NCBI GenBank assembly: GCA_964522105.1
Contig: CAZFVA010000004.1
Location: 24,740 to 88,739 of the forward strand
Direction of reading: 5' to 3'
From: an uncultured Anaeromyxobacteraceae bacterium
GTDB lineage: Bacteria; Myxococcota_A; UBA9042; DTJE01
Length of the DNA: 64,000 nt
The notes under the pieces are model-generated. The model made no database searches, was not told the DNA's origin, and was given only the letters and a program-made list of their open reading frames with translations. The number at the start of each line of letters is the position of its first letter. Position 1 is the first letter of the stretch. Shown one piece after another: positions 14,960-28,436 of the stretch. The translations under genes and the position numbers were made by a program.

Positions 14960-15757
14960 ATGCCCGAAAAGGTGCTCACACCTGCCGTCATTGTTTCAAG
15001 AACGCCCTATCAGGAAAGGGACCTCATCCTGGGTCTGCTTACCAGAAATGAAGGTCTTGTATCTGTCATGGCCAGGTCTGCAAGGGCCAGCCGCAGGCGC
15101 TTTCCGGGGGTTCTGGATCTTTTTGTAGTGTTTGACGCCGAATATTCTTTGAATCGAGGCTCGCTTCCCGTTCTTTCTGCTGCCGAGCCTTTAATGTATT
15201 TTCCCGGGATTTTAGAGGATCTGGATCGTCTTGAAGCCGGCCAGATGATTATTCAGGTTGTCCGTGAGCTTCTTCGCGACGCGCCTGCGCCTGCGCATGT
15301 TTTTGATATGGTCGTGCAGTCTTTCAGGTATCTCGAAGAATCTACACCTGCATTCGCGTATCTGATTCTTCTTGAGTTGGTCTTGTGGATGGCCGGCGAT
15401 CTCGGTCATGTTCCCGTAAATGGCCATTGTCCGGGGTGCGGCAGGCTGGCGCGGGAAGCTGGCCTGGCTCATGACGGAAGAGTGCTCTGCCGGGATTGTT
15501 GTGTCGGGCCCGGATACCGGTTGCAGGCCGTCGCAAGTTATCCTGAATCATATTGTACGCGGCGGTTTCTTGCTGTTAATCCGGCATGTTCCCCGGCGGG
15601 GGGCGCCACGGATTGCCCGGTTCCCGATCGCGAGCAGGCGATGGAGTTGATTTCAGCCGTTGTTGTCGGGATAACTGGTGGTACAAGTCTTTTTACGGGA
15701 TATGGTTCGCGCAACTGCCAGGGTCATGACAAGTGCCAGTGCCAGAATAATCAATGA
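14960..15757 (+). CDS. recO: DNA repair protein RecO
   Basis: Starts MPEKVLTPAVIVSRTPYQERDLILGLLTRNEGLVSVMARSARASRRRF (RecO N-terminal OB fold). C-terminal zinc motif CPGCGR...CRDCC. The 3' end overlaps the convergent gene by about 100 nt. Confidence 0.75.
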   Translation: MPEKVLTPAVIVSRTPYQERDLILGLLTRNEGLVSVMARSARASRRRFPGVLDLFVVFDAEYSLNRGSLPVLSAAEPLMYFPGILEDLDRLEAGQMIIQVVRELLRDAPAPAHVFDMVVQSFRYLEESTPAFAYLILLELVLWMAGDLGHVPVNGHCPGCGRLAREAGLAHDGRVLCRDCCVGPGYRLQAVASYPESYCTRRFLAVNPACSPAGGATDCPVPDREQAMELISAVVVGITGGTSLFTGYGSRNCQGHDKCQCQNNQ

Positions 15758-17290
15758 TATCGGGGTACTGTTGGCGTTTATACTGTTAATCGAGCAGCCG
15801 GCCGAAGGCTTTTCACACTCCAGCTCATCGGTTTCGCCGTCACAGTCGTCGTCAATCTGATCGTTGCAGATTTCGTTCGATGGTGTTCCTTCAACGGCCG
15901 CGCATTCCACGTCAAGCAGGCTCCTCGAGCAGACGAACTTGCTGACCGAAAGGCAGGCGCCCCGCCCTGCCGAACACGCTTCACCCACCGGGAAACCTTC
16001 GTCAGTGAATCCGTCACAGTCGTTATCCAGACGGTCTCCGCACAGCTCTGTATCTGCGTTGCCCGGTATCGCGTTGCATCTCGATTTCGAGGTGCCGTCG
16101 CATTCGATGACGCCGTTTCGAAGACATATTCCAAGTCCGGCGCTGCAAAGGTCGTTGATGTGAAAACCTTCGTCAGTAAACCCGTCGCAATCGTTGTCTT
16201 TTTTGTCGCATTTTTCCGACGATGATCCTGGTTCGGTGCCATCAGGAAGTGTCGAGCATGTCGGCCGCAGGGTAGTGGACGAACAGACGACGGTGCCCTT
16301 TCCGCATTCCCCCGGCGCGTTGCACATGGCGTCAAGGGCCAGCCCGTTGAAGGTCATATTTTCATCGGTCGTTCCGTCACAGTCGTTGTCCAGATGGTCG
16401 CACATCGTCTCGTCGTCAATTTCCCACCCGGGGGTATCGGGACAGATGAATCCGGATGTGCCTTCGCACAGGGGGACAATTGCTGCGCAGACGCCTTTGT
16501 CCGGGCACGTTCCGGTTGGCGGCGAGACTTCTTCGTCGGTCAGGCTGTTGCAGTTGTCATCAAGTCCGTTACAGGATTCCGTGCCGCCTGGTTTGACTAC
16601 CGGGTTGGTGTCGTCGCAGTCGCCTTCGTCTTCCGAGAACGAATCAAGATCATCATCACAATATGTGTTGGCACGCCCGGGGGTTCCGAAGTCGCCCAGT
16701 CCGTAAGGAATGCGCGCCAGACACCAGTTAGGGACGTCAACAGCTCCCGGTTCAAGCGACAGCGAGTAGCCTTTTTCAATCTGGATCCCGCCGCCGCCAT
16801 AGGACACATAATCGACCAGCTTTCCATCTCTCATCAGCAGAATGACGTCTGAAACCGGGTTCAAAGGAAAATCATTTCCGTACGAATAGTCGACAGGGAC
16901 TCTCCCGTTGACCTCCTGGTCCAGCCTGCTTCCAATCAGAAGTATCTGCCCCGGTGCAAGAATAAGTTCGGTAGCCGGGATGATGACGTGAAAGCCATCT
17001 GATGATGTCGACATCAGGACAATTCCCTGCATGTTGACCGGTGTTTCCGTCAGGTTCTGCAGTTCAAGCCACTGCCCCGATGCCGAATCGACCTTTGCCG
17101 GGTGGGCCATGATTTCGGTTATGGTTACGGTCTGCCAGTATGGGGAATCGATACCTCCGGCCCGTGGCGCGGCAAAGCCTGTTGCCGGCTGCGCCATGAC
17201 GACCGCAGATCCCGTCGCGATAAGTGTTGAAGTGATGATGATTTGTGTCAGGACTCGATTCATGTCTCTGATCCTACAGAATTGCAGCAA
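15653..17290 (-). CDS. secreted lamin-tail-domain (LTD) protein with 5 MopE-like Cys-rich repeats and a MYXO-CTERM-like C-terminal anchor
   Basis: Signal peptide. LTD motif ITEIMAHPAKVDSASGQWLELQNLTETPVNMQGIVL. Repeats CNGLDDNCNSLTDE, CDHLDNDCDGTTDE, CDKKDNDCDGFTDE, CGDRLDNDCDGFTDE and CNDQIDDDCDGETDE. C-terminus GCS...LIILALALVMTLAVARTISRKK. Confidence 0.65.
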   Translation of the reverse strand: MLQFCRIRDMNRVLTQIIITSTLIATGSAVVMAQPATGFAAPRAGGIDSPYWQTVTITEIMAHPAKVDSASGQWLELQNLTETPVNMQGIVLMSTSSDGFHVIIPATELILAPGQILLIGSRLDQEVNGRVPVDYSYGNDFPLNPVSDVILLMRDGKLVDYVSYGGGGIQIEKGYSLSLEPGAVDVPNWCLARIPYGLGDFGTPGRANTYCDDDLDSFSEDEGDCDDTNPVVKPGGTESCNGLDDNCNSLTDEEVSPPTGTCPDKGVCAAIVPLCEGTSGFICPDTPGWEIDDETMCDHLDNDCDGTTDENMTFNGLALDAMCNAPGECGKGTVVCSSTTLRPTCSTLPDGTEPGSSSEKCDKKDNDCDGFTDEGFHINDLCSAGLGICLRNGVIECDGTSKSRCNAIPGNADTELCGDRLDNDCDGFTDEGFPVGEACSAGRGACLSVSKFVCSRSLLDVECAAVEGTPSNEICNDQIDDDCDGETDELECEKPSAGCSINSINANSTPISLIILALALVMTLAVARTISRKKTCTTSYPDNNG

Positions 17291-17310: not shown

Positions 17311-19155
17311 ATGAGTACGGGCACGTCCATTGACAGCGGGGGGCTTTTCAACATAGCATCTGCGGACTATTCCGGGGGTTGCGTGAACGGTTCAACCCAA
17401 AAATCAAAGCGACAGGGACGCTCACTGTTAAGTCTGGTGGCGGCGATCTGTTGTCTGTTTCAGGCTTTTGCCGCGTCGGCTCAGGTTGCCCCGGTCGAGC
17501 ATCTCGATGAATCTGCGGGTGGCACCCAGCTTGTTGTGCCCCAGACCGATGATACCGATATCGCGACCAAACCATTCGTAACATTCGAAAATCATGGATA
17601 TTTCAGGTTCAGATTCAACACCCTCTACAATTTTGATCTCGGTATGGCGGCTCGTGGCGCCAACGACATCTGGACCCCACCTACAGCCGATTCTCAGGGC
17701 GCCAAAGGCAGCGTCGGTAATGTTTCAGACACCGCAACATCTGCAAATATAAGATTCAGGTACGCGCCCCTGGTCAGGATTGGCGAAATTCTGACAGTCG
17801 GCGGAACTTTTGATTTTCTTGATAATCTTGTTCTCGGGCAAACGCCTGACATCGGCAGTGCAGGATATCCACTGGCATTTCAGACCAGATCTCAGGTGTG
17901 GCCTTCTTCCGGGATATCCGGATTCAAGGATTCGGTACGAATCAAGTCGATGTGGGCAGATCTTTACCTGTTCGGCGTAGTCCACATCATGGGCGGCAGA
18001 ATGCCCGAGCATTTCGGGCTCGGGATCGTCAGAAACGGCGGCTATTCGCTTGATTCTGATTTCGGTGATTACGTTGACGGTCTGTTCATAAAGGCCAGGG
18101 TCGGCCCGACATATCTGCGTGTCGGCCTCGAGATTGTCGGGCAGGGCGTTTCGTCCGATTCTCCGTTCGGTTATTTTGTCTATCCTTCAGATTATTCGAC
18201 GATGGACGACACCCTCCGCTGGGTTTTCGGGGCTGATTCAACTCCTGGTACCCCTGAAGAAAAAGCGAAGCAGAAACGGGACCTTGAGAACCATAAACCG
18301 GTCGTTGACTGGGGTATATACAACGCAATCACTACGCAGAACCTGTCGTCTGACAGAATACTGACTTCCAACCTCGAGCTTGCAGGTCATGACGCCAATG
18401 CTGATGGCTACGACTACGACAAGTACACGGTCGTGCCCAGGGGCGCGTTCTTCTGGACCCCGAGCGTCTGGACAAAATTGAAGTACAGCCCGCGGCCCGG
18501 CCTTCAATTCCGCCTTGAAGTCGAACTTTCAATGACTTACGGCTGGGTTGACCACATGCAGAGCTCTGTCGAGGACATCGACACATCGAAAGATTTCCTG
18601 TCTTTCGGCGGCGCGCTCGAGTTCGACATTGATATTGGAAAGAACAATGTTTCATTCCTGACTGGTGCTGCCAGTGGCGGAAATACCCTTGGTTATTACG
18701 GAATCAACGATCGCCACACCCTCGCATGTCCTGATAACAACTGTTACAGCGCCTCGAATCCCGAAGTTTTCCTGACCAAAAATATTCATCACTTTGTCTT
18801 TAATCGCGATTACAGGATCGACTCAATTCTGTTCCGCGAAATTATCGGATCCGTGACCAACGCCTTCTATTTCAAGCCCGGTTACTACAGAACGTTCTAC
18901 AAACAGGGTGATTGGAAGGTCGGCGGCGGCGTCAGCCTGGTCGCATCATTTGCGTGTATCAAGGAAGGTACCCCCGGTGGCAAGTTGCCTCTTGGTGTCG
19001 AGCCCGGCCTGAAGCTTGACGCGACGTGGCGGGATATCCTGTCGCTTACTGCCGATGCTGCCGTCCTGTTCCCATTGTCCGGTATGAAGTATCCTGACGC
19101 CGACGATCCTTCGCCCGCTTCTGCTCTGCGAGTCCGTGCCCAGGTCGTTTTTTGA
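17311..19155 (+). CDS. outer-membrane beta-barrel protein (porin-like); alternative GTG start near 17383
   Basis: Signal peptide RSLLSLVAAICCLFQAFAASAQ. Alternating amphipathic segments. C-terminal residue is Phe (...LRVRAQVVF), typical of OMP barrels. Confidence 0.55.
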   Translation: MSTGTSIDSGGLFNIASADYSGGCVNGSTQKSKRQGRSLLSLVAAICCLFQAFAASAQVAPVEHLDESAGGTQLVVPQTDDTDIATKPFVTFENHGYFRFRFNTLYNFDLGMAARGANDIWTPPTADSQGAKGSVGNVSDTATSANIRFRYAPLVRIGEILTVGGTFDFLDNLVLGQTPDIGSAGYPLAFQTRSQVWPSSGISGFKDSVRIKSMWADLYLFGVVHIMGGRMPEHFGLGIVRNGGYSLDSDFGDYVDGLFIKARVGPTYLRVGLEIVGQGVSSDSPFGYFVYPSDYSTMDDTLRWVFGADSTPGTPEEKAKQKRDLENHKPVVDWGIYNAITTQNLSSDRILTSNLELAGHDANADGYDYDKYTVVPRGAFFWTPSVWTKLKYSPRPGLQFRLEVELSMTYGWVDHMQSSVEDIDTSKDFLSFGGALEFDIDIGKNNVSFLTGAASGGNTLGYYGINDRHTLACPDNNCYSASNPEVFLTKNIHHFVFNRDYRIDSILFREIIGSVTNAFYFKPGYYRTFYKQGDWKVGGGVSLVASFACIKEGTPGGKLPLGVEPGLKLDATWRDILSLTADAAVLFPLSGMKYPDADDPSPASALRVRAQVVF

Positions 19156-19529: not shown

Positions 19530-20675
19530 TCACATGCCCATGTCAGTTCGTGCCACTTCAACTTTTGACGTAAAGCCCTTTCGCGCCGGATCAAGGCTGT
19601 GCACAGCTCTGGTAACAAGATAACGCCCACTGAACAGCTTGCCGAACCCTTTGAATTCAACGGTATTTCCGGCAAGGATTTGTGCGTTGCCCTTTGTTTC
19701 CATCCTTCCTCTGATAAAGCGCAAAGCAGTTCTTGTCAGAATCCTGGCTGCGATTTCTTCAGCTTCCTTTTCTGACCAGACAGGTATGTCAGTAATTCTA
19801 AGTACTCTTCCGGCATCCGGGTCTTCCCAGAAAGCCTTTCCCACGGCAACTCCGCCGCTTTCTCCGCCGAATTCAAGGTCTGGTGTTTCGGCTTTGCCGG
19901 AAATAACTTTCTTGTTAACCGGGTCCCAGGAGCGAATTTCAACGGCTCTGTATTGTCTGGATGCGCACAGCCTGAATTCGGCGTCACCGGCCAGAATGCC
20001 TCCGTTGCTGCAGGCGTCTGTCGTTCTGACAAAAACCAGAGAGGCGTCATCAAGAACTTCCGGCTTAAGAAAGTTCAATTTTCTGTTGTTGTCCGGCTCA
20101 GATTTTATGAAACCGCCGTTGGCCAGTGCAAGCCAGTCGCATAAAGCCCGGTCAGAAGCGTTCATCTGCGGGATGTAGTAGTGACCGTCTCTCCCCGGAA
20201 TGGTTTTACCTGGCTCAAGCGCCGAATCTGGCCCGCTGTCTCCGCCGGATTCCCTGATGATTTCCTTCAGCAGAGCATCTGATTGCACCGACGGTTTTCT
20301 GCCATCACCCCATACGCGGGTTCTTGAACCCATTGACAGTCGGTGGGAAAAATCGAATCCTGAAATGGTCACAAATGAAGGTTGTTCTACGGAAAAATGG
20401 GGCTCGATGGTGTTAATTTCCCCAAGGATCAACCCGTTTTCCTTGCTTGATTGTCCAATGCCCAGGCGGACTTCCATGCCCGTTTTGATTTCATCCAGAA
20501 GCTCAACTCCAGCTCGAAGTGTCATTTTGATTTCGAATGAGGACGGTTCCATCAGGCGCAGGTCAGCCGTTGCTTTTTCCACCAGGGCTGCAAATGGCAC
20601 TCCGGTTTTTCCTGCAGAATCTTTGCCGGCTATGGAGATATTGCAACTCGCGGTGTCTCCATTCATGTCATTCAC
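19530..20675 (-). CDS. phage late control gene D (gpD/gp27-like) baseplate hub protein of the CIS cluster
   Basis: 381 aa. C-terminal GRYLVTRAVHSLD...KVEVAR typical of the Phage_GPD family. No gp5-like spike extension. Last gene of the operon, overlapping the upstream gene by 4 nt. Confidence 0.75.
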   Translation of the reverse strand: MNDMNGDTASCNISIAGKDSAGKTGVPFAALVEKATADLRLMEPSSFEIKMTLRAGVELLDEIKTGMEVRLGIGQSSKENGLILGEINTIEPHFSVEQPSFVTISGFDFSHRLSMGSRTRVWGDGRKPSVQSDALLKEIIRESGGDSGPDSALEPGKTIPGRDGHYYIPQMNASDRALCDWLALANGGFIKSEPDNNRKLNFLKPEVLDDASLVFVRTTDACSNGGILAGDAEFRLCASRQYRAVEIRSWDPVNKKVISGKAETPDLEFGGESGGVAVGKAFWEDPDAGRVLRITDIPVWSEKEAEEIAARILTRTALRFIRGRMETKGNAQILAGNTVEFKGFGKLFSGRYLVTRAVHSLDPARKGFTSKVEVARTDMGM

Positions 20676-21391
20676 TCCTTGTTCTTGCGTCCAAGCTTCA
20701 GTTTGATTCCATCCAGGTCGGCCAGAGGGTTTTCAATTCCACTGGCAACGGCGATGTTCTGCCACTCTTCCGGGGAGTCGTAGAATCTTGTTGCAATTCC
20801 CGTCAGGGTGTCGTCAGTGCCAGCCGTGATCTCCCGGTCTCCGTTGCCCGTGGCGGTCTGTCTGGAAATCTGGTCACCGGCAGGTGTTGCCTCGATCAGA
20901 TCAATTTCCACGCGGGCCCGGACCGGGGTTCCATCGGACAGGAACATGACATAAGCGACCTTGATTCTTTTGACATACCAGGGGCATGAATTGTAGGAGT
21001 CGTTTTCGGACATGAAACGGCCCCATTGAAATAGAACTTTAGGGGGGCGCTTGAGGTCGGGGTCCTGGTGTACAAGGGCCTCCAGCTTGTCAATGTAGCG
21101 GCGTCTGACGTTTTGCCGTTCTTCGTAAGTATCAAAATACAGATTTCCAAGGGCCAGCTTTCTGGAGGTGCCATGGGTCCACTCCTTGTCTCCGGAGTCC
21201 AGTCCGTGGCGACTGTGTTCCTTGAATTCCGTGGATTTCTCGACTGTTATGGCTGCGGGGTTGTAGTTGAACACGAAATCAGCGCCGCCATCCCGGGGAA
21301 AACCGCCCCAACCTCTGTCGATGACATGAAGAAATGCTTTGGAGAGCGAACCGTTTGAAGCGTGACATCCAGAAAGAAAATCCATTACCAA
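20672..21391 (-). CDS. tube-initiator-like protein with C-terminal LysM domain (Afp7/Pvc7-like)
   Basis: N-terminal tube-like segment FVFNYNPAAITVEKSTEFKEH. C-terminal LysM-like DTLTGIATRFYDSPEEWQNIAVASGIENP. Translationally coupled to both flanking genes. Confidence 0.6.
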   Translation of the reverse strand: MVMDFLSGCHASNGSLSKAFLHVIDRGWGGFPRDGGADFVFNYNPAAITVEKSTEFKEHSRHGLDSGDKEWTHGTSRKLALGNLYFDTYEERQNVRRRYIDKLEALVHQDPDLKRPPKVLFQWGRFMSENDSYNSCPWYVKRIKVAYVMFLSDGTPVRARVEIDLIEATPAGDQISRQTATGNGDREITAGTDDTLTGIATRFYDSPEEWQNIAVASGIENPLADLDGIKLKLGRKNKE

Positions 21392-23556
21392 CCTCTTTCA
21401 AATTCCTGTTCGATCGTTCTCATGATTCGCTCGTAGACTTTTTCAGTCAGTATTTCGACGTCTGAAAGATCGGGATTATCCAGGACTCGGTTGTAAGTTT
21501 TATTCTGGTCTTCTTCTGGTACAAAACTATCGCTGTTCGGGTTGTCGTTTCGATTTGCTGCGTTTCTGCCTGTCAGTATTGAGCTTTGTTCGGCAGCCCA
21601 TAAGCCGGGTTGTCCAGTCTGCAACTGGTTTTCGCCCGCCCATTGATTGACGGCTCCATTGTGTCCTGAAGACATATCGTTCTGTGAGGACTTGCGGCCT
21701 GACTGGTTCAGTCCATGCAGATTGTTTGGTGTCGATAGTGTTCCTGAACTTGCCCGTTCTTTTTTGTCGAAGCTCGGGAGCGTCATCTCTGGTGATTTGA
21801 AAGAACTGACTGTTTCGTTGTGCAGACTGACAGTGGGTAGATTGTCTTGCGCAGCGTCAGTGGCATAGCCCGATTCCGCTCGTTTTGGCAGTTCGGGTGT
21901 CAAGTGGGATTGCAGCAGCGTCGGATACAGCAAAGATTTTGTTGCTTCGATGGCGGCTGAAGGCTGCCGGGCACCTGGCATGTGGATGTCATCATTATTG
22001 CCGGACTGCCTGTCCCCCGTTGAATCCGCTGATCGCGACAGCTTAAAGGCTCCGAGTTCAGTGGCAAATGGTGATAGCGAAGCATAAGGTCTAGTTGTGG
22101 CCGGTTCATATGGCTCTGCAGACAAGTCTGTGAATGTGCGCGTGGGTGCAGGCTCTTTCCGGGTAATGTTTTCCATTTTCGTGGACAGAGGCTTAATCGG
22201 TGATATGCCGGGGTAGTCAACGAGGTTCGAATAATTCCCGCGCGTGGACAGCCCGGGCTCAGTCGCCTGTTGTAAGACAGGGCGCTTGCGGACCTCTTTC
22301 TCCGGGTTGCTTCGAACGGTTGTTTCAAACTTATCGGATTGATTTCTGTCATAAGTCGACAGGAGCTCCGGCTTGTCTGGTAAAGCTTGTTCGGGCTTAA
22401 CTGACGTTATTAATGCGGCAAATTCAGGTTGAAAGTTTTTGAAATCAGAACCGGACATTTTACCGTATTTTTCAGGTATGGATTCGATTGCGCCGGTACT
22501 GTCTTGTTTCTGTGCGTTCGGTCTGGCTGGCAAGGCGGCACATTCATTCCTGCGGCTGTGCGCTGAAACGGTTTCCGGTTGGCTCGAAGCATTTGCAAGA
22601 TAGATGGAATCTGACAATTCTGATGCTGAATAAGTCGCGCTCAGTCTGCTTTTGAATTGATCGGCGCGGTTAACAGTTTGAAAAAAGGAGTTGTCAGTTC
22701 CTGCATCAATAGTTGTCCGGCGACCATTCTGCGCCGTGACATTGTTTCTTTCCTGTACCGATGCGGCTTTGTCGAATGTCGGCGTGCGCCCGGCTTCAGT
22801 GTTCAGGATCTGCGTAAGGTTTTTTGCGGAAGAAATGCAGCAGGTGGTGGCCTCGTCACCCGGCCTGAATTTTTCGGTGACTGATGGTGTGTTTTGAAGT
22901 ATTGACGGTGGTTCTGCCGGTCGAGTTGACAGCGCAAGGCCATCCTGGTGCCAGCCATTTGAATTGATTGAACTTATCGTGTGTTTCGGGCAGTCGGCCT
23001 TCCTGCCGGCCTTTCTTTCGGTCCGAATGGTCACAGCTTCGCCGTATGGCTGCAGTCCTGTTGAGCTGTCGGCCGAAGTGTGTGGCGGGCTTTTAATAGC
23101 GGTATTTCTGCCCTGGATATCTTTGTCGGCTAAAACCCCTGAGTACTCGGATCGGGATGAAAAGGTGTTGATAATATTTGTGGAGCAATCTGTTCTATGG
23201 ACGCAGCAGTCTTCAAAGCTGGTCGAGGCTTCGCGTTTTGCGTATGCGGGGACAAAGGTAAGGTTGCTCCTGCCGTGCGTTGCCAGCAAAGATTGGCAGA
23301 TGTCCGGAGAGCGCAAGTCTCTGTGTGTCAGCCCGGCGTGTCTTTCTGTAATTCGGTCGTATTCATGTGGCTCTTCGTTCTTTCGTTTTGACAGCCTCAG
23401 GTTTGTTTGAAGTGGAAAGTCTACCTCGAGGTCCTGCTGTTCACTGCTTTGCGCGTTGCTGCCAAGTGTTGTCTTGAAAGGTCTGGCCCCGATTGTTTTT
23501 ACTGGAAGGCTTTGATACCTGTCGGCAATGCGCCCGAAAGGGCCGGTCATTTCCAT
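21385..23556 (-). CDS. tape-measure-like protein; low-complexity S/T/N/Q/P-rich with a conserved-looking C-terminus
   Basis: 723 aa. Sits between the tube gene and the tube-initiator/hub genes (the conserved TMP position). Long polar low-complexity body with an ordered-looking C-terminus LTEKVYERIMRTIEQEFERGW. Confidence 0.5.
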   Translation of the reverse strand: MEMTGPFGRIADRYQSLPVKTIGARPFKTTLGSNAQSSEQQDLEVDFPLQTNLRLSKRKNEEPHEYDRITERHAGLTHRDLRSPDICQSLLATHGRSNLTFVPAYAKREASTSFEDCCVHRTDCSTNIINTFSSRSEYSGVLADKDIQGRNTAIKSPPHTSADSSTGLQPYGEAVTIRTERKAGRKADCPKHTISSINSNGWHQDGLALSTRPAEPPSILQNTPSVTEKFRPGDEATTCCISSAKNLTQILNTEAGRTPTFDKAASVQERNNVTAQNGRRTTIDAGTDNSFFQTVNRADQFKSRLSATYSASELSDSIYLANASSQPETVSAHSRRNECAALPARPNAQKQDSTGAIESIPEKYGKMSGSDFKNFQPEFAALITSVKPEQALPDKPELLSTYDRNQSDKFETTVRSNPEKEVRKRPVLQQATEPGLSTRGNYSNLVDYPGISPIKPLSTKMENITRKEPAPTRTFTDLSAEPYEPATTRPYASLSPFATELGAFKLSRSADSTGDRQSGNNDDIHMPGARQPSAAIEATKSLLYPTLLQSHLTPELPKRAESGYATDAAQDNLPTVSLHNETVSSFKSPEMTLPSFDKKERASSGTLSTPNNLHGLNQSGRKSSQNDMSSGHNGAVNQWAGENQLQTGQPGLWAAEQSSILTGRNAANRNDNPNSDSFVPEEDQNKTYNRVLDNPDLSDVEILTEKVYERIMRTIEQEFERGW

Positions 23557-24068
23557 GTTGAAAATCCGGCTTGAAGCGCCCCTTTCTTTTCGTTCTGGCT
23601 GCTGAAGTCAAATGATTCGTAAATGATTTCAATTTCTTCAAAAAGAAACCTGCTGGAATTTGAATCAAGAACAGGCCCTGAATATGCGGATAAAAAGGCG
23701 CCAAAAAGATTAAAACGCCCCGTCTCTTCTCCTTTGTCGTCGTTGATGATGATCGAAATACTTGTTCGTGCCTGTGGTTCTCTTGTCGGTCTGGATGAGG
23801 ATTTCATCCAGGAAACCAACTCTCTTGAGGCCGCGATGAACCCCCTTTTCAGCGTGAGAGGGGTAAATTTTCCCGGCCCTGGAAGAATGACCGGACCTGT
23901 CAGGTTGCCACCTTCTGAAAAGCTGAGGGTTTCTGATCGCCATTGAAGTCCGCGGGCTTCGGAAAATCTGCCGTGACAAATTCCATCTATTTCAATGGCA
24001 AATGAAAAGGATGTCAGAGGATCTGAGCGTCCGCTGCCGCCAGCGAGTTGTTCTAATGGATTGATCAT
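23547..24068 (-). CDS. contractile tail tube protein, paralog 2 (T4 gp19 / Afp1/5 family)
   Basis: FSFAIEIDGICHGRFSEARGL...ETLSFSEGG pattern typical of gp19-like tube proteins. 173 aa. Confidence 0.8.
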   Translation of the reverse strand: MINPLEQLAGGSGRSDPLTSFSFAIEIDGICHGRFSEARGLQWRSETLSFSEGGNLTGPVILPGPGKFTPLTLKRGFIAASRELVSWMKSSSRPTREPQARTSISIIINDDKGEETGRFNLFGAFLSAYSGPVLDSNSSRFLFEEIEIIYESFDFSSQNEKKGALQAGFSTWK

Positions 24069-24100: not shown

Positions 24101-25594
24101 CTATACGGTAGAGTCCATTCCAATCGAGATTCTGACGAATTTAGCCGGCTTGACTGGAGCCAGATCTATTTCGGCATGTATTCGGCCGGCCGAAATCTCT
24201 TCCGGGGGATTTGTTTCGAAATCGCACTTGACCCGCCATGCCTGTTCTGAAGTTTCCCCTGCGAGCATGCCTTTTTTGTGGAGTTCTCTTGCGAAGGCAG
24301 AAAGCTTTCTTGCGATCGTTTCCCACAGCGTTGCTTCATTCGGTTCGAATGCAGCCCACGCAAGACCCGGCTCGAGAGTTTTTCGTACCGCGTTAATGAA
24401 TCTGGCGGATCCCAGGTCCCATCCATCGGTGGTGACGGCTGCCCAGGGCCTGACACCTTGATGCTGGATAATGGTGTTCACGCCTGATGTGGCCAGGGTT
24501 GCCGCTGAGCCTGTGTTTGTAAACGAGGTCAGCTCTGCAACGTCGGTCAGTTTGATATTTGCCGGTGTTCGATGCGGGCCTGTTTCGTTGTCAATACGTG
24601 CGAAAAGCCCAGCGGCGTATGCGGAAGGAGGAGTCACCATTCCGGACGATGAAACAACCCACGGGTAATAGGCCGCTGCATGTCTTGATTGAAGTGGAAC
24701 GAACCAGTCGATTACTTCCTTCAAGCTGCAATGAGGCGGTGCGTCCAGGATGGCAATAGAGGCGCCTGTTCTGGTTGTGGCATTTACCAGAGCCATCTGT
24801 ACTTTCAGAACGCTGCTGATGTTCAGGAATGGCCCCATGCCAAGTTTTGCAGCTCTTGAATGCAGCCAGAATAAATCCGGGGCAAGAAAAGAGTCACATT
24901 CTTCTGTTCTGAGCAGGGCTTCAAGCGGAGAGTCTTCTTTTTGGAGTCTTTCGTTGGTGGAACCTGTGAAATCATCAGGCTCTGTCTCGTCGATAGCGTC
25001 CCGCCCTCCGGACATGATGATGTTCAGGCATTCGGGGATATTGGACAGATCGACTTGAAAAAGTCTTATTAAACGTTCTGCCGTGTTTGATCTGGCCGAC
25101 TGTAGATCAAAAAATTCGACAGTTTTTCTATTCAAGGCCGTTTTAAGCGCGCAAGAAATTTCGCCATTATGGATAGATAACGAAATGTTATTTCCAAACG
25201 CGCCTCTCTCCAGGGCTTCGGCACTGAAGATCGTTTTTCCTGATGAGTCAGTCAGGTTGTATCTTGCGCGGGAGGCATCTCTGGCAATAACTCTGCTTAC
25301 GAAGCAGCGTTCCCCGCCATTCATGAAATAGGCTCTGATGGAAGGTTCAAGCAGGCCACCGTCCGGAGATCCTCCAAATATTTGAATAAATTCATTTGGG
25401 CTGTGGATTTCCATGGCCTTTCTTTCCGGCCCGCGAACAGTCAGTCCCATAAACCCGGCCACACCAGTTTTGCGCAGCATGAGGGGTTGTTCTTGACGTA
25501 CAGAAGGTACAAAGAGGATGCCCGGTGTTTGATTGGTCATCTCTGTTTGATAACCCTGGTCTGTTCTGGTTGCGTCATGACGCTCTGGAATCAT
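24101..25594 (-). CDS. contractile tail sheath protein, paralog 2 (likely true start at MTNQTPGILF, about 25540)
   Basis: Sheath N-terminus TPGILFVPS...TGVAGFMGL. The segment ...YFMNGGERCFVSRV is equivalent to the sheath-1 motif FFSNGGGRCWIVNV. 497 aa. Confidence 0.85.
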   Translation of the reverse strand: MIPERHDATRTDQGYQTEMTNQTPGILFVPSVRQEQPLMLRKTGVAGFMGLTVRGPERKAMEIHSPNEFIQIFGGSPDGGLLEPSIRAYFMNGGERCFVSRVIARDASRARYNLTDSSGKTIFSAEALERGAFGNNISLSIHNGEISCALKTALNRKTVEFFDLQSARSNTAERLIRLFQVDLSNIPECLNIIMSGGRDAIDETEPDDFTGSTNERLQKEDSPLEALLRTEECDSFLAPDLFWLHSRAAKLGMGPFLNISSVLKVQMALVNATTRTGASIAILDAPPHCSLKEVIDWFVPLQSRHAAAYYPWVVSSSGMVTPPSAYAAGLFARIDNETGPHRTPANIKLTDVAELTSFTNTGSAATLATSGVNTIIQHQGVRPWAAVTTDGWDLGSARFINAVRKTLEPGLAWAAFEPNEATLWETIARKLSAFARELHKKGMLAGETSEQAWRVKCDFETNPPEEISAGRIHAEIDLAPVKPAKFVRISIGMDSTV

Positions 25595-25802
25595 TTATTT
25601 CTCTGTTTATTTCTGATATCTGCTGGACCCATTTGTGTCTTTCCCGGTGTTCCATTTCAAGGATTTCTTCCTGAGACCAGTGAAAATGGTACGCGACGAA
25701 GGCTACCTCCCTGTACAACTGGTCCAGGGGGTAGCGAATCATTCCCCCGGCTGGCAGTCTCCGCAGATGTCGTATTCGATTGATTGCGCACATGCCGGAC
25801 AT
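25575..25802 (-). CDS. small hypothetical protein in the −1 frame relative to the upstream small ORF (candidate assembly-chaperone partner)
   Basis: 75-aa ORF overlapping the 124-aa ORF by 64 nt. Its ATG follows a TAA in its own frame (AGC ATT AAA TGT vs TAA ATG). Confidence 0.4.
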   Translation of the reverse strand: MSGMCAINRIRHLRRLPAGGMIRYPLDQLYREVAFVAYHFHWSQEEILEMEHRERHKWVQQISEINREINDSRAS

Positions 25803-26113
25803 TTAATGCTGGCGATCGTTGAACCGTTTTCGTTGACCCGTTTGTACAATTCCTGCAGGTAGGCAAGGTCTGAAGCGTATAAATCTTCAATCACCGAAGG
25901 ATTAATTGATTTGAGATCTCCAAGGCTTGTGATTACGCGGGAAAGCAGTATTACCACCAGATAGGCTTTGTTCTGCTGGACTCTGTAATCCTGGAGCGGC
26001 GCAATTTCGTCTTTCGCGGTTGCCAGTCTCATCAGGCCCTTTTTGTGTACGCGCCCTTCCTTGTCTACAAAACCTTTTGGCAGAGTGAATTCGAATTCTG
26101 TTTTGAAGCTCAT
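25739..26113 (-). CDS. small hypothetical protein with C-terminal zinc-ribbon-like CPAC...CGDC (candidate tail assembly chaperone)
   Basis: 124 aa. AAGGA Shine-Dalgarno upstream. Sits between tube and sheath genes where phage tail chaperones usually lie. C-terminus IKCPACAQSIEYDICGDCQPGE. Confidence 0.45.
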   Translation of the reverse strand: MSFKTEFEFTLPKGFVDKEGRVHKKGLMRLATAKDEIAPLQDYRVQQNKAYLVVILLSRVITSLGDLKSINPSVIEDLYASDLAYLQELYKRVNENGSTIASIKCPACAQSIEYDICGDCQPGE

Positions 26114-26137: not shown

Positions 26138-26569
26138 TCAGGTGCGTTCAATTTTCTCTACTGCAAGTTCGATCTCTTCCACATTGACGTCAGATCCTTT
26201 GCCATCAAGAGAAAAGCCTTTCCATTTGCACGGCCAGGCATCGAAGAAGTTGTAGCGGACGATTTCTTCGCCATCGTCTGCGCATAGAATGATCGAGCCG
26301 GATTTGCGTTCTGCCTTGCCTTCGATCACTTTTTTCCGCCATTTCCAGAGTTCATCACTGGCAACATAGCCGCGCTTGAGCACAATGTTGGAGTACTTGG
26401 TTCTGCCAGGTCTTTTTCGCAATACGAGGTCATCACCATCCTGGTATTCGACGATCTCGGTTTCAGAGTCGAGGCCATCCACATTGCGAAAAGCCGCTTG
26501 AGTTACGCCTTCAATTTCAACTTTGAAATTGAAGTTTCCAATGTGGTCAAAATCCCTTCTGTTGTTCAT
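26138..26569 (-). CDS. contractile tail tube protein, paralog 1 (gp19 / Afp1 family)
   Basis: NFNFKVEIEGVTQAAFRNVDGL...EIVEYQDG, the classic tube-protein N-terminus. 143 aa. Confidence 0.85.
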   Translation of the reverse strand: MNNRRDFDHIGNFNFKVEIEGVTQAAFRNVDGLDSETEIVEYQDGDDLVLRKRPGRTKYSNIVLKRGYVASDELWKWRKKVIEGKAERKSGSIILCADDGEEIVRYNFFDAWPCKWKGFSLDGKGSDVNVEEIELAVEKIERT

Positions 26570-26601: not shown

Positions 26602-27810
26602 TTAATCCTTGACGTCCGCGCCGCCAGCCATCTGTCCGATCCTGAAGACAACGAATTCGGCAGGCTTTACCGGACTCATGCCGATATCGACGACGACCCT
26701 GCCTGCGTTTATTACTTCTTCGGGGTTAGTTTCCGAGTCGCATTTGACAAAAAAAGCTTGTTCCGGGGTTTTGCCGAAGAGGGCGCCCTGGCGCCACAGG
26801 CGCAGCAGAAATGCGGTAAGGTCGCGGCTGAGGCGCTTCCAGAGTCGCTCGTCGTTCGGTTCAAAAACGACCCAACCGGTGCCTCTTTCGATTGATTGTT
26901 CAGTCATCAGAAACAGGCGTCGCACATTTACATATCTCCAGACAGGGTCATCAGAAAGGGTTCTTGCGCCCCAGACTCTGATTCCGGAGCCTGGAAGGGC
27001 GCGAATGCAGTTGATGCCGCGCGGGTTAAGAAGGTCCTGTTCACCTGTTGTAATAAGGTACTTGAGGCCAAGAGCACCCCGGACAAGTTCGTTTGCCGGT
27101 GCTTTGTGAACGCCCCTTTCGGCGTCGCAGCGGGCATAGATGCCAGCTACAAAACCGGATGGTGCGGCCATGACACGGCCATGCACAGGGCTGGCAACTT
27201 CAATCCAGGGGAAGTAAATTGCGCCATGTTTTGAAGGCCTTGGCCTGGGGATGGTTTCGACCCCGCCTTTTTCAATTGTTTCGGGGCAGTCGAGAATTGC
27301 GAATCTGTATTTCATGATTTCGCAGTGAGTAAGGACAGCGTCCTGAATTTCGGGATCTGTTATGCCGGGTATGGCAACCAGACTGATGTCATCCAGCGTT
27401 TCAAGGGACTTAAGACCTGTTTTTCTACCTATGCCATCGTCGCGGCCGGCAAAACGGGCAATTTTGTCGGGTCTTGTCTTTCTGGCACTTTTCTTCGGTC
27501 GCTCCGGGTTGTCCGGCTCGATTTCTTCTGTATCGCCAGATTCGCTGAGGCCGACGTTGACGATCCAGCAGCGTCCCCCGCCGTTGGAAAAGAAACCGTA
27601 GACTGCCTGCGCAAGGTGCTCACTGTCCGAGAAGTCACCGAAGGTCTTTGTGAACATGCTCCAGTTGCAACAAAGGAACGGTTCATCAATCGGTCCTTTT
27701 CTGCATTCTCCGAGGAATGCCGCTGTACTTGAGCCGACCATTTCGAGAGGTCGTGCGCCGGAATCGACTTCCTCTACATAAACGCCGGGGGAGAGGTAAT
27801 TTGCTGCCAT
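26602..27810 (-). CDS. contractile tail sheath protein, paralog 1
   Basis: MAANYLSPGVYVEEVDSG...TAAFLG...FFSNGGGRCWIVNV and a C-terminal sheath domain. 402 aa. Confidence 0.85.
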   Translation of the reverse strand: MAANYLSPGVYVEEVDSGARPLEMVGSSTAAFLGECRKGPIDEPFLCCNWSMFTKTFGDFSDSEHLAQAVYGFFSNGGGRCWIVNVGLSESGDTEEIEPDNPERPKKSARKTRPDKIARFAGRDDGIGRKTGLKSLETLDDISLVAIPGITDPEIQDAVLTHCEIMKYRFAILDCPETIEKGGVETIPRPRPSKHGAIYFPWIEVASPVHGRVMAAPSGFVAGIYARCDAERGVHKAPANELVRGALGLKYLITTGEQDLLNPRGINCIRALPGSGIRVWGARTLSDDPVWRYVNVRRLFLMTEQSIERGTGWVVFEPNDERLWKRLSRDLTAFLLRLWRQGALFGKTPEQAFFVKCDSETNPEEVINAGRVVVDIGMSPVKPAEFVVFRIGQMAGGADVKD

Positions 27811-27842: not shown

Positions 27843-28436
27843 TCAGCGATTCGGGACAATCGAGAGGTCCCGCGCTGATACGCGCCTGAGGTCTTTCGAT
27901 CTGCGTTCGGATTCGATCCGGAATCGGACCAGGTAGAACAGTGTCGGCTTCATGTCACGCCCAAGGGTCTTCCAGAGGGAGAGGCATTCTGAAAAGTCGG
28001 TTTCGAGGTCCGGAAAGACTTCAAGGTGGTCGTTTTCAAGAAATGAGTCCCCGATAAGATCGCGGCCGGATATGAAGGGTTTTTCCAGCATGGATTTGAT
28101 GCAGAGACCGAGGAGAGTGTGTTCTTCCGGGGGAGTTCGAGCGTGTGCAGAGATGGCCAGTCGAGCGTGGAGTATCGCCGGGGCGTCTTCGTAGTATTCG
28201 ATCTTTTTTCCGGTTGCGTCTGTGCTGGTAACAATTCGATCGGTGCGTTCGCGGTAGCCGGGAGCGAACCGGATTCCGCAGATAAACATGCTGATTACGG
28301 GGAGGTTGCGAAGATTATCGCGAGTTGGAGTGTCTGTTGAGATGCGGACGGTTTCGAAACCTTCGCGGGAAGTTGTATCGCGGACGATTTTTTCAATGGT
28401 TGGGCAGATGTCCCGGATAACGTCAAAACGCGACAT
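27843..28436 (-). CDS. DUF4255-like tail terminator/cap protein (Afp16/Pvc16-like)
   Basis: 197 aa. N-terminal pattern M..DVIRDI...VRISTDTPTRDNLRNLPVISMFICGIRFAPGYRER parallels the DUF4255 consensus (V.ISFDAPTR...PTLNLFLYDIRENR). First gene of the operon. Confidence 0.55.
   Translation of the reverse strand: MSRFDVIRDICPTIEKIVRDTTSREGFETVRISTDTPTRDNLRNLPVISMFICGIRFAPGYRERTDRIVTSTDATGKKIEYYEDAPAILHARLAISAHARTPPEEHTLLGLCIKSMLEKPFISGRDLIGDSFLENDHLEVFPDLETDFSECLSLWKTLGRDMKPTLFYLVRFRIESERRSKDLRRVSARDLSIVPNR

What the first reader, a model, noticed from the sequence alone, without database searches (positions are those of the whole stretch)
21385..23556. Putative tape-measure protein is a 723-aa polar low-complexity protein rather than a helical TMP
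The gene occupies the tape-measure position between the tube and the tube-initiator/hub genes. Nearly the whole protein is S/T/N/Q/P/R-rich with no hydrophobic heptads (for example SADSTGDRQSGNNDDIHMPGARQPSAAIEATKSLLYPTLLQSHLTPELPKRAESG). Only the last 35 or so residues (DLSDVEILTEKVYERIMRTIEQEFERGW) look ordered. This is unlike phage TMPs, which are long alpha-helices. It may measure length as an extended or disordered chain, or it may be a different kind of cargo or scaffold.
Basis: partly seen in the sequence, partly recalled or inferred. Interest (0 to 1): 0.55.

Follow-up and report, generated by a model that had tools for sequence, protein, structure and literature searches.

The report
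Disordered tape-measure-like protein of injection systems
The 723-residue polar protein is a real gene from a widespread, unnamed family that sits where phage-tail-like injection machines keep their length ruler, and members also occur in well-studied Streptomyces and archaeal systems whose published descriptions say no ruler gene is present.

Summary
The ORF is real: window 21385-23556, minus strand, 723 aa. It lies between a tube gene and the tube-initiator and hub genes of a contractile injection system (CIS) whose sheath is closest to the Streptomyces coelicolor CIS. It is the most hydrophilic of 44 window proteins. It has no repeats and is not low-complexity in the strict sense. It has no Pfam, NCBIfam, PHROG or PDB match.

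Its only detectable relative among 1.8 billion representatives is an 84% identical orthologue. Between the two, dN/dS is 0.49, against 0.00-0.29 for the neighbouring genes.

In 67 of 80 related clusters from many bacterial and archaeal phyla, the gene at this position ends in the same roughly 30-residue helix (...VYxRLxRRLxxERERRG). The rest of each protein is 155-1986 aa, unalignable, and tracks genome GC.

Members include an unannotated 2203-aa ORF in Halogeometricum borinquense and a 1020-aa "hypothetical" in Streptomyces. A tail-assembly-chaperone homologue lies upstream.

Best reading: a tape-measure-like lumen protein with a largely unstructured body, anchored in the hub by its C-terminal helix. 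A ruler role is inferred, not shown. It is not a member of the Afp14/Pvc14 family.

The parts
21385..23556 (-). Gene for the 723-aa protein ('X723'): tape-measure-position protein of the CIS cluster
   Evidence: ORF. Orthologue P0002 has 84-86% identity, one in-frame 22-codon indel and dN/dS 0.49. No Pfam, NCBIfam or PHROG hit.
21475..23556 (-). Hypervariable, hydrophobic-poor body (residues 1-694), probably largely unstructured
   Evidence: Lowest hydrophobicity of 44 window proteins. AF2 pLDDT below 50 almost throughout. No similarity to the bodies of about 70 positional equivalents (best E 0.11 in a tiny database). Residues 1-120 evolve at dN/dS about 1; residues 481-600 at 0.19.
21388..21474 (-). 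Conserved C-terminal amphipathic helix motif (residues 695-723, ...DLSDVEILTEKVYERIMRTIEQEFERGW)
   Evidence: An HMM built from 50 other family C-termini, excluding this protein, ranks it first of 1197 six-frame segments of the window (E=0.001; next best 1.2). AF2 helix 698-720. Residues 696-723 are identical in the orthologue.
20672..21391 (-). Tube initiator (Cis7/Afp7-like, Pfam CIS_tube). Its probable ATG at 21385 overlaps the X723 stop codon (TAATG)
   Evidence: Pfam PF19266, 4e-18. Best PDB hit is 9gtp_P, a 'LysM domain-containing protein' chain of the S. coelicolor CIS model (9e-11). Junction sequence.
19530..20675 (-). Hub protein, gp27/VgrG N-terminal-like (381 aa)
   Evidence: PDB hits to the VgrG-type chains 9gtr_q, 9rce_F and 7b5h_AJ. 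The equivalents in L008 and L009 carry Phage_GPD.
23547..24068 (-). Second tube protein (173 aa). Its end overlaps the X723 start by 10 nt
   Evidence: Pfam Phage_T4_gp19, 4e-26.
24101..25594 (-). Second sheath protein (497 aa)
   Evidence: Pfam Phage_sheath_1 and Phage_sheath_1C.
25575..25742 (-). Small DUF6760 ORF (55 aa), in the -1 frame relative to the chaperone-like gene and overlapping it by 4 nt
   Evidence: Gene call with PF20546 in the orthologous locus L001. ORF and frame shown.
25739..26113 (-). Tail-assembly-chaperone-like protein (124 aa) with a C-terminal zinc ribbon
   Evidence: PHROG 508 'tail assembly chaperone', E=1.1e-7. The same zinc-ribbon + DUF6760 pair lies directly upstream of the family member in Streptomyces and Methylobacterium.
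26138..26569 (-). Main tube protein (143 aa)
   Evidence: Pfam Phage_T4_gp19, 1e-40.
26602..27810 (-). Main sheath protein (402 aa)
   Evidence: Pfam sheath domains. Best PDB hit is the S. coelicolor Cis2 chain of 8bky/9gtp, E=3e-123.
27843..28436 (-). Tail terminator/cap (Pvc16_N, DUF4255)
   Evidence: Pfam PF14065, 4e-11.

Best explanation
X723 is a structural protein of a lineage-II contractile injection system. It plays the part that the tape measure protein plays in phage tails. Its conserved C-terminal helix (~30 aa, ending E-R-G-W) most likely docks in the cavity formed by the hub and tube-initiator proteins encoded just downstream. The remaining ~690 residues are hydrophobic-poor, proline-interrupted and fast-evolving. 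They probably run as a largely unstructured chain (likely several copies) up the tube lumen. The upstream chaperone homologue would keep the protein assembly-competent. Tube and sheath would polymerise around it until its N-terminal end is reached and the Pvc16-type cap binds, so that chain length rather than sequence sets particle length. At ~0.22 nm per residue this predicts a tube of about 160 nm (about 42 rings).

Shown: the gene is real and under weak purifying selection; it sits in the TMP position; the C-terminal motif is conserved across phyla; the body is hypervariable; there is a chaperone homologue.

Inferred: location in the lumen, docking in the hub, lack of fixed structure, and the ruler role.
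For: 1. Position. The order is sheath, tube, chaperone homologue (PHROG 508, 1.1e-7), small -1-frame ORF, [sheath2, tube2], X723, tube initiator, hub. This mirrors the phage order tube, G/GT or E/E', TMP, hub. X723 is the largest ORF of the module and is translationally coupled on both sides.

2. Family. In 67 of 80 related loci the ORF just upstream of cis7 ends in the same motif. The hosts include Myxococcota, Planctomycetota, Chloroflexota, Cyanobacteria, Actinomycetota, Acidobacteriota, haloarchaea and Methanolobus. Lengths are 155-1986 aa, median 842. X723 is picked out by an HMM trained without it.

3. The body is unconstrained in sequence. dN/dS is 0.49, against 0.00-0.29 for neighbours. 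Bodies cannot be aligned. The G+A+P+R content runs from 15% to 57% and tracks locus GC (rho=0.90).

4. Length tends to be kept while sequence is not. Lengths are 1130 vs 1130 aa at 48% identity and 1250 vs 1248 aa at 33% identity, with the downstream cis7 proteins 64-67% identical (pairs chosen post hoc).

5. Calibration in H. borinquense. Contracted sheaths measure 220 +/- 16 nm at a 17.09 A rise, about 129 rings (PMC11566945). At the 38.5 A extended rise of the closest solved system (PMC10066040) that gives about 496 nm. Divided by the 2203-aa member, this is 0.225 nm per residue. The experimentally tuned Alg14 ruler gives 0.229, and the cross-CIS slope is 0.2156 (preprint 10.64898/2026.05.27.728243).

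6. Calibration in Streptomyces. The member is 1020 aa, which predicts 220-234 nm. S. coelicolor particles are reported at 230-295 nm.

7. Particles in these systems have uniform length although the papers state that a TMP gene is absent.
Against: No experiment bears on this protein or on any family member.

Some members are too short to span the known particles. Actinomycete loci L068 and L079 have 287-290 aa and Methylobacterium has 257-339 aa, predicting only 55-75 nm.

Halogeometricum pallidum has 546 aa against 2203 aa in H. borinquense. Close relatives also show 15-25% jumps in length.

The Streptomyces calibration uses a different species from the one measured. The S. coelicolor gene could not be examined, and the status of sco4249 is unclear.

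No lumen density was seen in H. borinquense tubes.

The deposited S. coelicolor models contain no chain with the motif.

The disorder evidence rests on composition and evolution. AF2 confidence is uninformative with two sequences.

The window lacks the baseplate wedge, spike tip, PAAR and ATPase genes, so a complete machine is not demonstrated.
Confidence: 0.55

Rival explanations
1. It is a lumen cargo or cargo carrier, not a ruler. The C-terminal helix is a loading or anchoring signal that tethers an unfolded polypeptide to the spike complex for ejection. Particle length is set by something else.
For: Known eCIS cargo is loaded unfolded through disordered segments. Two of ten relatives tested carry the eCIS_core/DUF4157 domain typical of CIS cargo (L061, L079). 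The S. davawensis effector Tme also sits just upstream of the baseplate genes, is ~70% disordered and contacts the spike and tube initiator. Short members (257-290 aa) cannot measure long tubes.
Against: X723 has no toxin, enzyme or DUF4157 domain. Its body evolves almost neutrally and tracks GC, which is odd for an effector. Known cargo signals are N-terminal, whereas here the conserved part is C-terminal. A chaperone homologue and the phage-like gene order fit a TMP. The residue counts roughly match measured lengths in two systems.
Confidence: 0.2
2. It is an over-extended spike plug. The C-terminal module is the equivalent of Cis6/Afp6 (DUF5908), which seals the spike cavity. The long N-terminal part is a tolerated, drifting extension with no length-setting role.
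For: Afp6 (55 aa) occupies exactly this position, immediately upstream of afp7. It also ends in a helix with ...LLERGCL. The Anabaena Cis6 trimer plugs the spike cavity and sends a flexible loop into the lumen. DUF5908 is the only Pfam family hit by more than one family C-terminus (3 of 39 and 3 of 55; best E 0.005). The haloarchaeal cluster is reported to lack both a plug and a TMP.
Against: X723 itself does not hit DUF5908. The family HMM scores Afp6 and Pvc6 no better than shuffled sequences. hhalign against a two-sequence Afp6 + Pvc6 template gave a probability of 1%. A functionless 700-2200-aa extension kept open in 67 loci, with dN/dS below 1, is unlikely. This reading overlaps the best one, since a plug fused to a ruler is possible.
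Confidence: 0.15
3. It is a spurious or decaying ORF, that is, non-functional sequence between two real genes.
For: It looks like an orphan: no family hit, and the N-terminal 120 aa have dN/dS of about 1. Gene callers often call only 33-84-aa fragments of family members.
Against: The 2.2-kb frame is kept open in the orthologue despite 8% nucleotide divergence and a 66-nt in-frame indel. Synonymous changes are in excess (p=2.8e-5). It is translationally coupled to both neighbours. Positional equivalents with the same C-terminus occur in 67 loci across two domains of life.
Confidence: 0.03

Closest known systems
Afp14 / Pvc14 / Alg14 tape measure proteins of lineage-I extracellular CIS (Pfam CIS_TMP, PF19268)
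   Same: Presumed role: a lumen protein whose length relates to particle length. Alg14 was shown experimentally to act as a ruler at 0.229 nm per residue. Size is comparable: Afp14 is 535 aa.
   Different: There is no sequence relationship. Afp14 hits CIS_TMP at 2e-49, whereas X723 and the Streptomyces and Halogeometricum members have no hit even at E<=10. Afp14 lacks the C-terminal motif. It is encoded after the fibre gene rather than before cis7. It is more hydrophobic (33% vs 21%). The known eCIS TMPs are predicted to have a mainly alpha-helical centre.
Phage tape measure proteins (lambda gpH, P2 gpT) with their tail assembly chaperones
   Same: Gene order: tube, chaperone(s), TMP, hub. It is the largest ORF of the tail module. 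There is a chaperone homologue followed by a small ORF in the -1 frame.
   Different: Phage TMPs are long helices: proline 1.5-2.4% and 64-81% of residues in Pro-free stretches of 40 aa or more. X723 has 6.9% proline and 17%. There are no hydrophobic or transmembrane segments (highest 21-residue hydropathy 0.47) and no PHROG hit.
Cis6 / Afp6 / Pvc6 spike plug (DUF5908)
   Same: Identical genomic position immediately upstream of cis7. It also has a C-terminal helix ending ...ERG. A flexible part of it reaches into the lumen.
   Different: Cis6 is about 55 aa, whereas X723 is 723 aa. Sequence support is weak and fails a shuffle control.
Tme of Streptomyces davawensis (tape-measure-related effector; PMC11126660)
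   Same: A large, ~70% disordered protein encoded just upstream of the baseplate genes. It interacts with the spike and tube initiator.
   Different: Tme has DUF4157, transmembrane helices, coiled coils and a C-terminal nuclease domain. X723 has none of these, and its conserved element is a short C-terminal helix.

Membership tests
CIS_TMP (Pfam PF19268; Afp14/Pvc14/Alg14) | Sequence match to the CIS_TMP profile | tested here: not met
   X723 has no Pfam hit at E<=10. The positive control Afp14 scores 1.9e-49.
CIS_TMP (Pfam PF19268; Afp14/Pvc14/Alg14) | Central region predicted mainly alpha-helical | tested here: inconclusive
   The AF2 model has about 10% helix, all of low confidence except residues 698-720. 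Helix-breaking prolines are frequent. AF2 is unreliable with a two-sequence alignment.
   The family C-terminal HMM gives Afp14 -3.0 bits, and not at its C-terminus. Afp14 ends ...WPLTDFTG. Pvc14 was not examined.
Phage-type tape measure protein (functional class) | Encoded between tube/tail-assembly-chaperone genes and hub/baseplate genes; largest ORF of the tail module | tested here: met
   Gene order and sizes. The chaperone homologue matches PHROG 508 at 1.1e-7.
Phage-type tape measure protein (functional class) | Long alpha-helical or coiled-coil rod | tested here: not met
   Composition compared with lambda gpH and P2 gpT; AF2 model.
Phage-type tape measure protein (functional class) | Protein length proportional to tail or particle length | tested here: inconclusive
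   Indirect only. The H. borinquense member (2203 aa) against about 129 sheath rings gives 0.225 nm per residue. The Streptomyces member (1020 aa) predicts 220-234 nm against reported 230-295 nm. Short members and within-genus jumps argue against.
Phage-type tape measure protein (functional class) | C-terminus lodged in the hub or spike cavity, body in the tube lumen | not testable with these tools
   No complex prediction was available. No PDB chain carries the motif.
Unnamed family defined here (C-terminal ...VYxRLxRRLxxERERRG helix, gene upstream of cis7) | Motif at the extreme C-terminus | tested here: met
   With an HMM trained without X723, residues 698-721 score 13.7 bits. This is the top hit among all six-frame segments of the window (E=0.001).
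Unnamed family defined here (C-terminal ...VYxRLxRRLxxERERRG helix, gene upstream of cis7) | Gene directly upstream of the CIS_tube/LysM tube-initiator gene (or of cis1b-cis7) | tested here: met
   The stop codon overlaps the cis7 start. The same arrangement is seen in 67 of 80 loci.
Cis6/Afp6 spike plug (DUF5908, PF19265) | Match to the DUF5908 profile | tested here: not met
   The X723 C-terminus (48 or 75 aa) has no hit. Only 3 of 39 and 3 of 55 relatives hit, weakly, with best E 0.005. The reverse test fails.
DUF4157 / eCIS_core cargo-associated proteins (PF13699) | Presence of the eCIS_core domain | tested here: not met
   Absent from X723. Present in 2 of 10 relatives scanned.

The most novel reading that the evidence does not exclude
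A polypeptide with essentially no sequence or fold constraint acts as the length ruler of a contractile nanomachine. Only its residue count and a ~30-aa C-terminal anchor are selected, and tube length follows at ~0.22 nm per residue. One possible mechanism, which is my own estimate and not a tool result, is that several chains confined in the ~4-nm lumen are forced to that extension. If so, this family would be the 'missing' tape measure, and perhaps also the missing spike plug, of lineage-II CIS. That group includes the Streptomyces CIS and the archaeal T6SS-like system, where published work states that none exists.
Probability: 0.4. Interest if true: 0.85.

Novelty: new variant of a known kind. 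Interest (0 to 1): 0.75.

Why it matters
Papers on the Streptomyces and haloarchaeal injection systems state that no tape measure gene is present. For S. coelicolor they also report particles of uniform length (PMC10066040, PMC12237407), and for H. borinquense a narrow length distribution of contracted sheaths (PMC11566945).

This finding names a concrete candidate gene in those very clusters. In H. borinquense it is a 2203-codon ORF of which RefSeq annotates only the last 182 codons. The question becomes directly testable by resizing the gene and measuring particle length.

If the ruler role holds, it would show that a molecular ruler need not be a rigid helix. It would also give a simple handle for tuning the length and cargo capacity of engineered injection systems.

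Finally, it flags a systematic annotation gap. Gene callers truncate or miss these genes, and assemblies break inside them.

Tried and rejected
1. Homologue searches. The word-index search and the exhaustive phmmer search of 1.84 billion representatives found only the 84% identical orthologue. The family was reached through synteny instead.

2. Domain libraries. Pfam, NCBIfam and PHROGs gave nothing for X723.

3. PDB. Searches with the C-terminal profile and with a cyanobacterial member found nothing relevant.

4. Afp14 C-terminus. There is no similarity.

5. Link to Cis6/DUF5908. The only support is weak Pfam hits for 3 relatives. hhalign against a two-sequence Afp6 + Pvc6 template gave a probability of 1%, and a shuffle test failed. 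I kept this as a rival reading, not a finding.

6. Last word-index search, with the C-terminal profile. It returned only 33-84-aa fragments, so it was useless for a length distribution. It does show that these genes get truncated by gene callers.

7. AF2 as a disorder test. It is undermined by the control: the 124-aa neighbour scored pLDDT 39. No fold search was run on such poor models.

8. Conserved N-terminal motif or any similarity between bodies. None was found.

9. S. coelicolor orthologue. I could not retrieve it. The P0067 look-up failed, and the S. venezuelae contig starts inside the gene.

10. Test of length conservation by random indel signs. It gave P=0.006-0.09 for five pairs and 0.17-0.64 for four others. 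The pairs were chosen after seeing the lengths, so it is only suggestive.
Full report
**1. The observation**

The ORF is at 21385-23556 on the minus strand and encodes 723 aa.

It belongs to a ten-gene minus-strand cluster:
- Pvc16_N cap, 27843-28436
- sheath, 26602-27810
- tube, 26138-26569
- a 124-aa protein, 25739-26113
- a 55-aa DUF6760 ORF, 25575-25742
- second sheath, 24101-25594
- second tube, 23547-24068
- X723
- CIS_tube tube initiator, 20672-21391
- a 381-aa hub, 19530-20675

X723 overlaps the end of the upstream tube gene by 10 nt. Its stop codon overlaps the probable ATG of the tube initiator (TAATG), which has an AAAGAGG ribosome-binding site.

The closest solved system is the Streptomyces coelicolor CIS. 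The sheath matches 8BKY/9GTP at E=3e-123. The tube initiator matches 9GTP chain P at 9e-11.

**2. Is it a gene?**

A Logan assembly holds the same cluster (L001) with a 701-aa orthologue. The frame is kept open across 8% nucleotide divergence and one 66-nt in-frame indel.

dN/dS is 0.49, against 0.00-0.29 for ten neighbouring genes. Amino-acid identity is 86%, against 92-100%. The excess of synonymous changes is significant (p=2.8e-5).

Constraint is uneven: about 1.0 for residues 1-120 and 0.19 for residues 481-600. Residues 696-723 are identical in the two sequences.

So it is a real gene under weak purifying selection.

**3. What kind of protein?**

- It is the least hydrophobic of 44 window proteins: 21% ILVFMWY (z=-2.4) and GRAVY -0.83. 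Only 1.5% of its 9-mers are hydrophobic clusters, against a mean of 19%.
- It falls marginally on the disordered side of the charge-hydropathy boundary (-0.009). Globular controls are at +0.05 to +0.06.
- Proline is 6.9%. Only 17% of residues lie in Pro-free stretches of 40 aa or more, against 81% for lambda gpH and 64% for P2 gpT.
- It is not low-complexity. No 12-mer falls below the SEG trigger, and there are no tandem or internal repeats.
- AlphaFold2 on the two-sequence alignment gives a mean pLDDT of 32.9. The only moderately confident element is helix 698-720.
- That low confidence is not proof of disorder. The conserved 124-aa neighbour, folded without an alignment, also scored 39.

The case for an unstructured body therefore rests mainly on composition and on its evolution.

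**4. Relatives**

Direct searches fail. The only hit among 1.84 billion representatives is the orthologue. There is no Pfam, NCBIfam, PHROG or PDB match.

Synteny succeeds. Homologues of the downstream tube initiator led to sister Myxococcota clusters with the same ten genes next to uvrA. In those, the equivalent gene encodes 1200-1250 aa of P/G/A/R-rich sequence ending ...DLEGLAAEMTxRILRRLKRxKERRGF.

A genome-wide scan with the tube-initiator alignment gave 80 loci. Of the 80 loci (75 from this scan plus 5 fetched earlier) that had an ORF directly upstream, 67 end in this motif. The hosts are:
- Myxococcota
- Planctomycetota
- Chloroflexota
- Cyanobacteria
- Actinomycetota
- Acidobacteriota
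- Zixibacteria
- Gemmatimonadota
- haloarchaea
- Methanolobus

An example is ELDIGSLADQVYERLVNRLANERERRGW in an Anaerolineae MAG, against DLSDVEILTEKVYERIMRTIEQEFERGW here.

An HMM built without X723 ranks its C-terminus first among all 1197 six-frame segments of the window (E=0.001; next best 1.2).

The 48 complete, distinct members are 155-1986 aa long, with a median of 842. Their bodies cannot be aligned with X723 even in a database of about 70 sequences (best E 0.11). Their G+A+P+R content runs from 15% to 57% and tracks locus GC (rho=0.90). Selection therefore acts on the C-terminal helix and hardly at all on the sequence of the body.

**5. Members in characterised systems**

*Halogeometricum borinquense.* On plasmid pHBOR03, a 2203-codon ORF ends exactly at the LysM/cis7 gene and finishes ...DVDRLVDVLYRKLERKRRMERQRRGF. 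RefSeq annotates only its last 182 codons, plus small opposite-strand ORFs. By my own estimate, not a tool result, an open frame of that length at ~60% GC has a chance probability of about 1e-31. The paper on this system says no tape measure (cis14) or plug (cis6) homologue is present (PMC11566945).

*Streptomyces.* In Streptomyces sp. NBC_01324 the order is sheath, tube, zinc-ribbon protein, DUF6760, a 1020-aa P/A/G/T-rich 'hypothetical protein', tube-1b, LysM, VgrG. The 1020-aa protein ends ...MDELARRLLDPVARLLRTELRRGRDRTG. An S. venezuelae contig begins inside the equivalent gene.

Neither of these two proteins was in the HMM training set. Both score at their extreme C-termini, at 11.2 and 10.5 bits.

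Four Streptomyces papers state that a tape measure gene is absent. The S. coelicolor papers among them also report particles of uniform length (PMC10066040, PMC12237407, PMC10286715). Chen et al. note that afp14 homologues are generally absent from lineage II (PMC6899500).

I found no paper in the held library that describes this family.

**6. Function**

The 124-aa protein after the main tube gene matches PHROG 508 'tail assembly chaperone' (E=1.1e-7). It is followed by the DUF6760 ORF in the -1 frame. In Streptomyces and Methylobacterium this pair lies directly upstream of the family member. That reproduces the phage order tube, chaperone(s), tape measure, hub.

*Length calibration.* H. borinquense contracted sheaths measure 220 +/- 16 nm at a 17.09 A rise, which is about 129 rings. 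At the 38.5 A extended rise of the S. coelicolor CIS that is about 496 nm, or 0.225 nm per residue for 2203 aa. The experimentally resized Alg14 ruler gives 0.229 nm per residue, and the slope across CISs is 0.2156.

The 1020-aa Streptomyces member predicts 220-234 nm. Reported S. coelicolor lengths are 230, 268 and 295 nm. This comparison is across species.

For X723 the prediction is about 156-166 nm.

*Length conservation.* Some diverged pairs keep their length. One pair is 1130 vs 1130 aa at 48% identity. Another is 1250 vs 1248 aa at 33% identity. Their cis7 proteins are 64-67% identical. These pairs were picked after seeing the lengths, and other pairs differ by 15-25%.

**7. Evidence against a universal ruler**

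- Members of 257-339 aa occur in Methylobacterium and of 287-290 aa in two actinomycetes. The latter have a divergent motif; one was scanned and carries an eCIS_core/DUF4157 domain.
- H. pallidum has 546 aa against 2203 aa in H. borinquense.
- No lumen density was seen in H. borinquense.
- No PDB chain carries the motif.

The cargo reading and the 'extended Cis6 plug' reading therefore remain open. Afp6 sits at the same position and ends ...LLERGCL. DUF5908 is the only Pfam family hit by more than one family C-terminus. The reverse test fails, however.

**8. Comparison and verdict**

X723 works most like a tape measure protein, but it is not a member of the Afp14/Pvc14 CIS_TMP family. The profile match and the shared C-terminus were both tested and not met. 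It also lacks the helical-rod character of phage tape measure proteins.

It is best filed as a member of an undescribed, widespread family: a new variant of the tape-measure idea with a fast-evolving, probably unstructured body and a short conserved C-terminal anchor.

My confidence that it is a hub-anchored lumen protein with a ruler-like role is 0.55. My confidence that the family and its motif are real is above 0.9.

Noticed in passing
L091 1672-8283 (+), i.e. NC_014736.1 about 65671-72282 (Halogeometricum borinquense pHBOR03): A 2203-codon open frame ends at the cis7/LysM gene and carries the family C-terminal motif. RefSeq annotates only its last 182 codons (HBOR_RS17605) plus small opposite-strand ORFs. 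The published description of this archaeal system lists the tape measure and plug as missing.
   Followed up: partly
L092 16674-19736 (Streptomyces sp. NBC_01324 plasmid); L097 1-244 (S. venezuelae): Streptomyces CIS clusters carry a 1020-aa P/A/G/T-rich 'hypothetical protein' with the motif, between DUF6760 and tube-1b. An S. venezuelae assembly breaks inside the equivalent gene. I could not examine the S. coelicolor locus (the sco4249 region).
   Followed up: partly
window 25739-26113 (-) and 25575-25742 (-): The 124-aa zinc-ribbon protein matches a phage tail assembly chaperone family (PHROG 508, 1.1e-7). The DUF6760 ORF that follows is in the -1 frame. A G-run (GGGGGAA) just before the stop codon is conserved in Myxococcota and Streptomyces clusters, and Methylobacterium has a canonical G GGG GGA heptamer. 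This could be a G/GT-type programmed frameshift, or simply a ribosome-binding site with stop-start coupling.
   Followed up: partly
window 1-64000; L002, L004-L006: The cluster is only half a machine. No spike tip (Phage_base_V), PAAR, gp25, baseplate-J or AAA ATPase gene was found among the 21 larger flanking ORFs scanned against Pfam. The same ten-gene half-cluster sits among the same housekeeping neighbours in sister Myxococcota MAGs: uvrA in L004-L006 and clpX/HIT in L002 and L004-L006. This suggests a conserved split locus.
   Followed up: partly
proteins P0037-P0087: Public gene calls for family members are often 33-84-aa C-terminal fragments labelled 'hypothetical protein' or 'syndecan 1'. 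Some are on long contigs, for example 51 aa on a 441-kb Streptomyces radiopugnans contig. Gene callers appear to truncate these genes systematically.
   Followed up: no
L061 8145-9965; L079 9117-9989: Two family members (Myxococcaceae, 606 aa; Herbidospora, 290 aa) carry an eCIS_core (DUF4157) domain in the body. This links the family to CIS cargo-associated proteins.
   Followed up: no
window 17311-19155 (+): A 614-aa protein with no Pfam hit lies next to the cluster on the opposite strand. It is highly conserved in the orthologous locus (99.3% identity, dN/dS 0.02). I did not test whether it is connected to the injection system.
   Followed up: no
window 24101-25594 (-): The second sheath paralogue evolves faster than the other structural genes: 91.5% identity and dN/dS 0.20, against 0.00-0.08 for the main sheath, both tube proteins, the cap, the tube initiator and the hub.
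   Followed up: no
window 15653-17290 (-) and 32310-34556 (+): Two large cysteine-rich repeat proteins flank the region. Both carry the MopE metal-binding motif, and one also has a lamin-tail domain. Homologous proteins flank the cluster in the orthologous locus L001.
   Followed up: no
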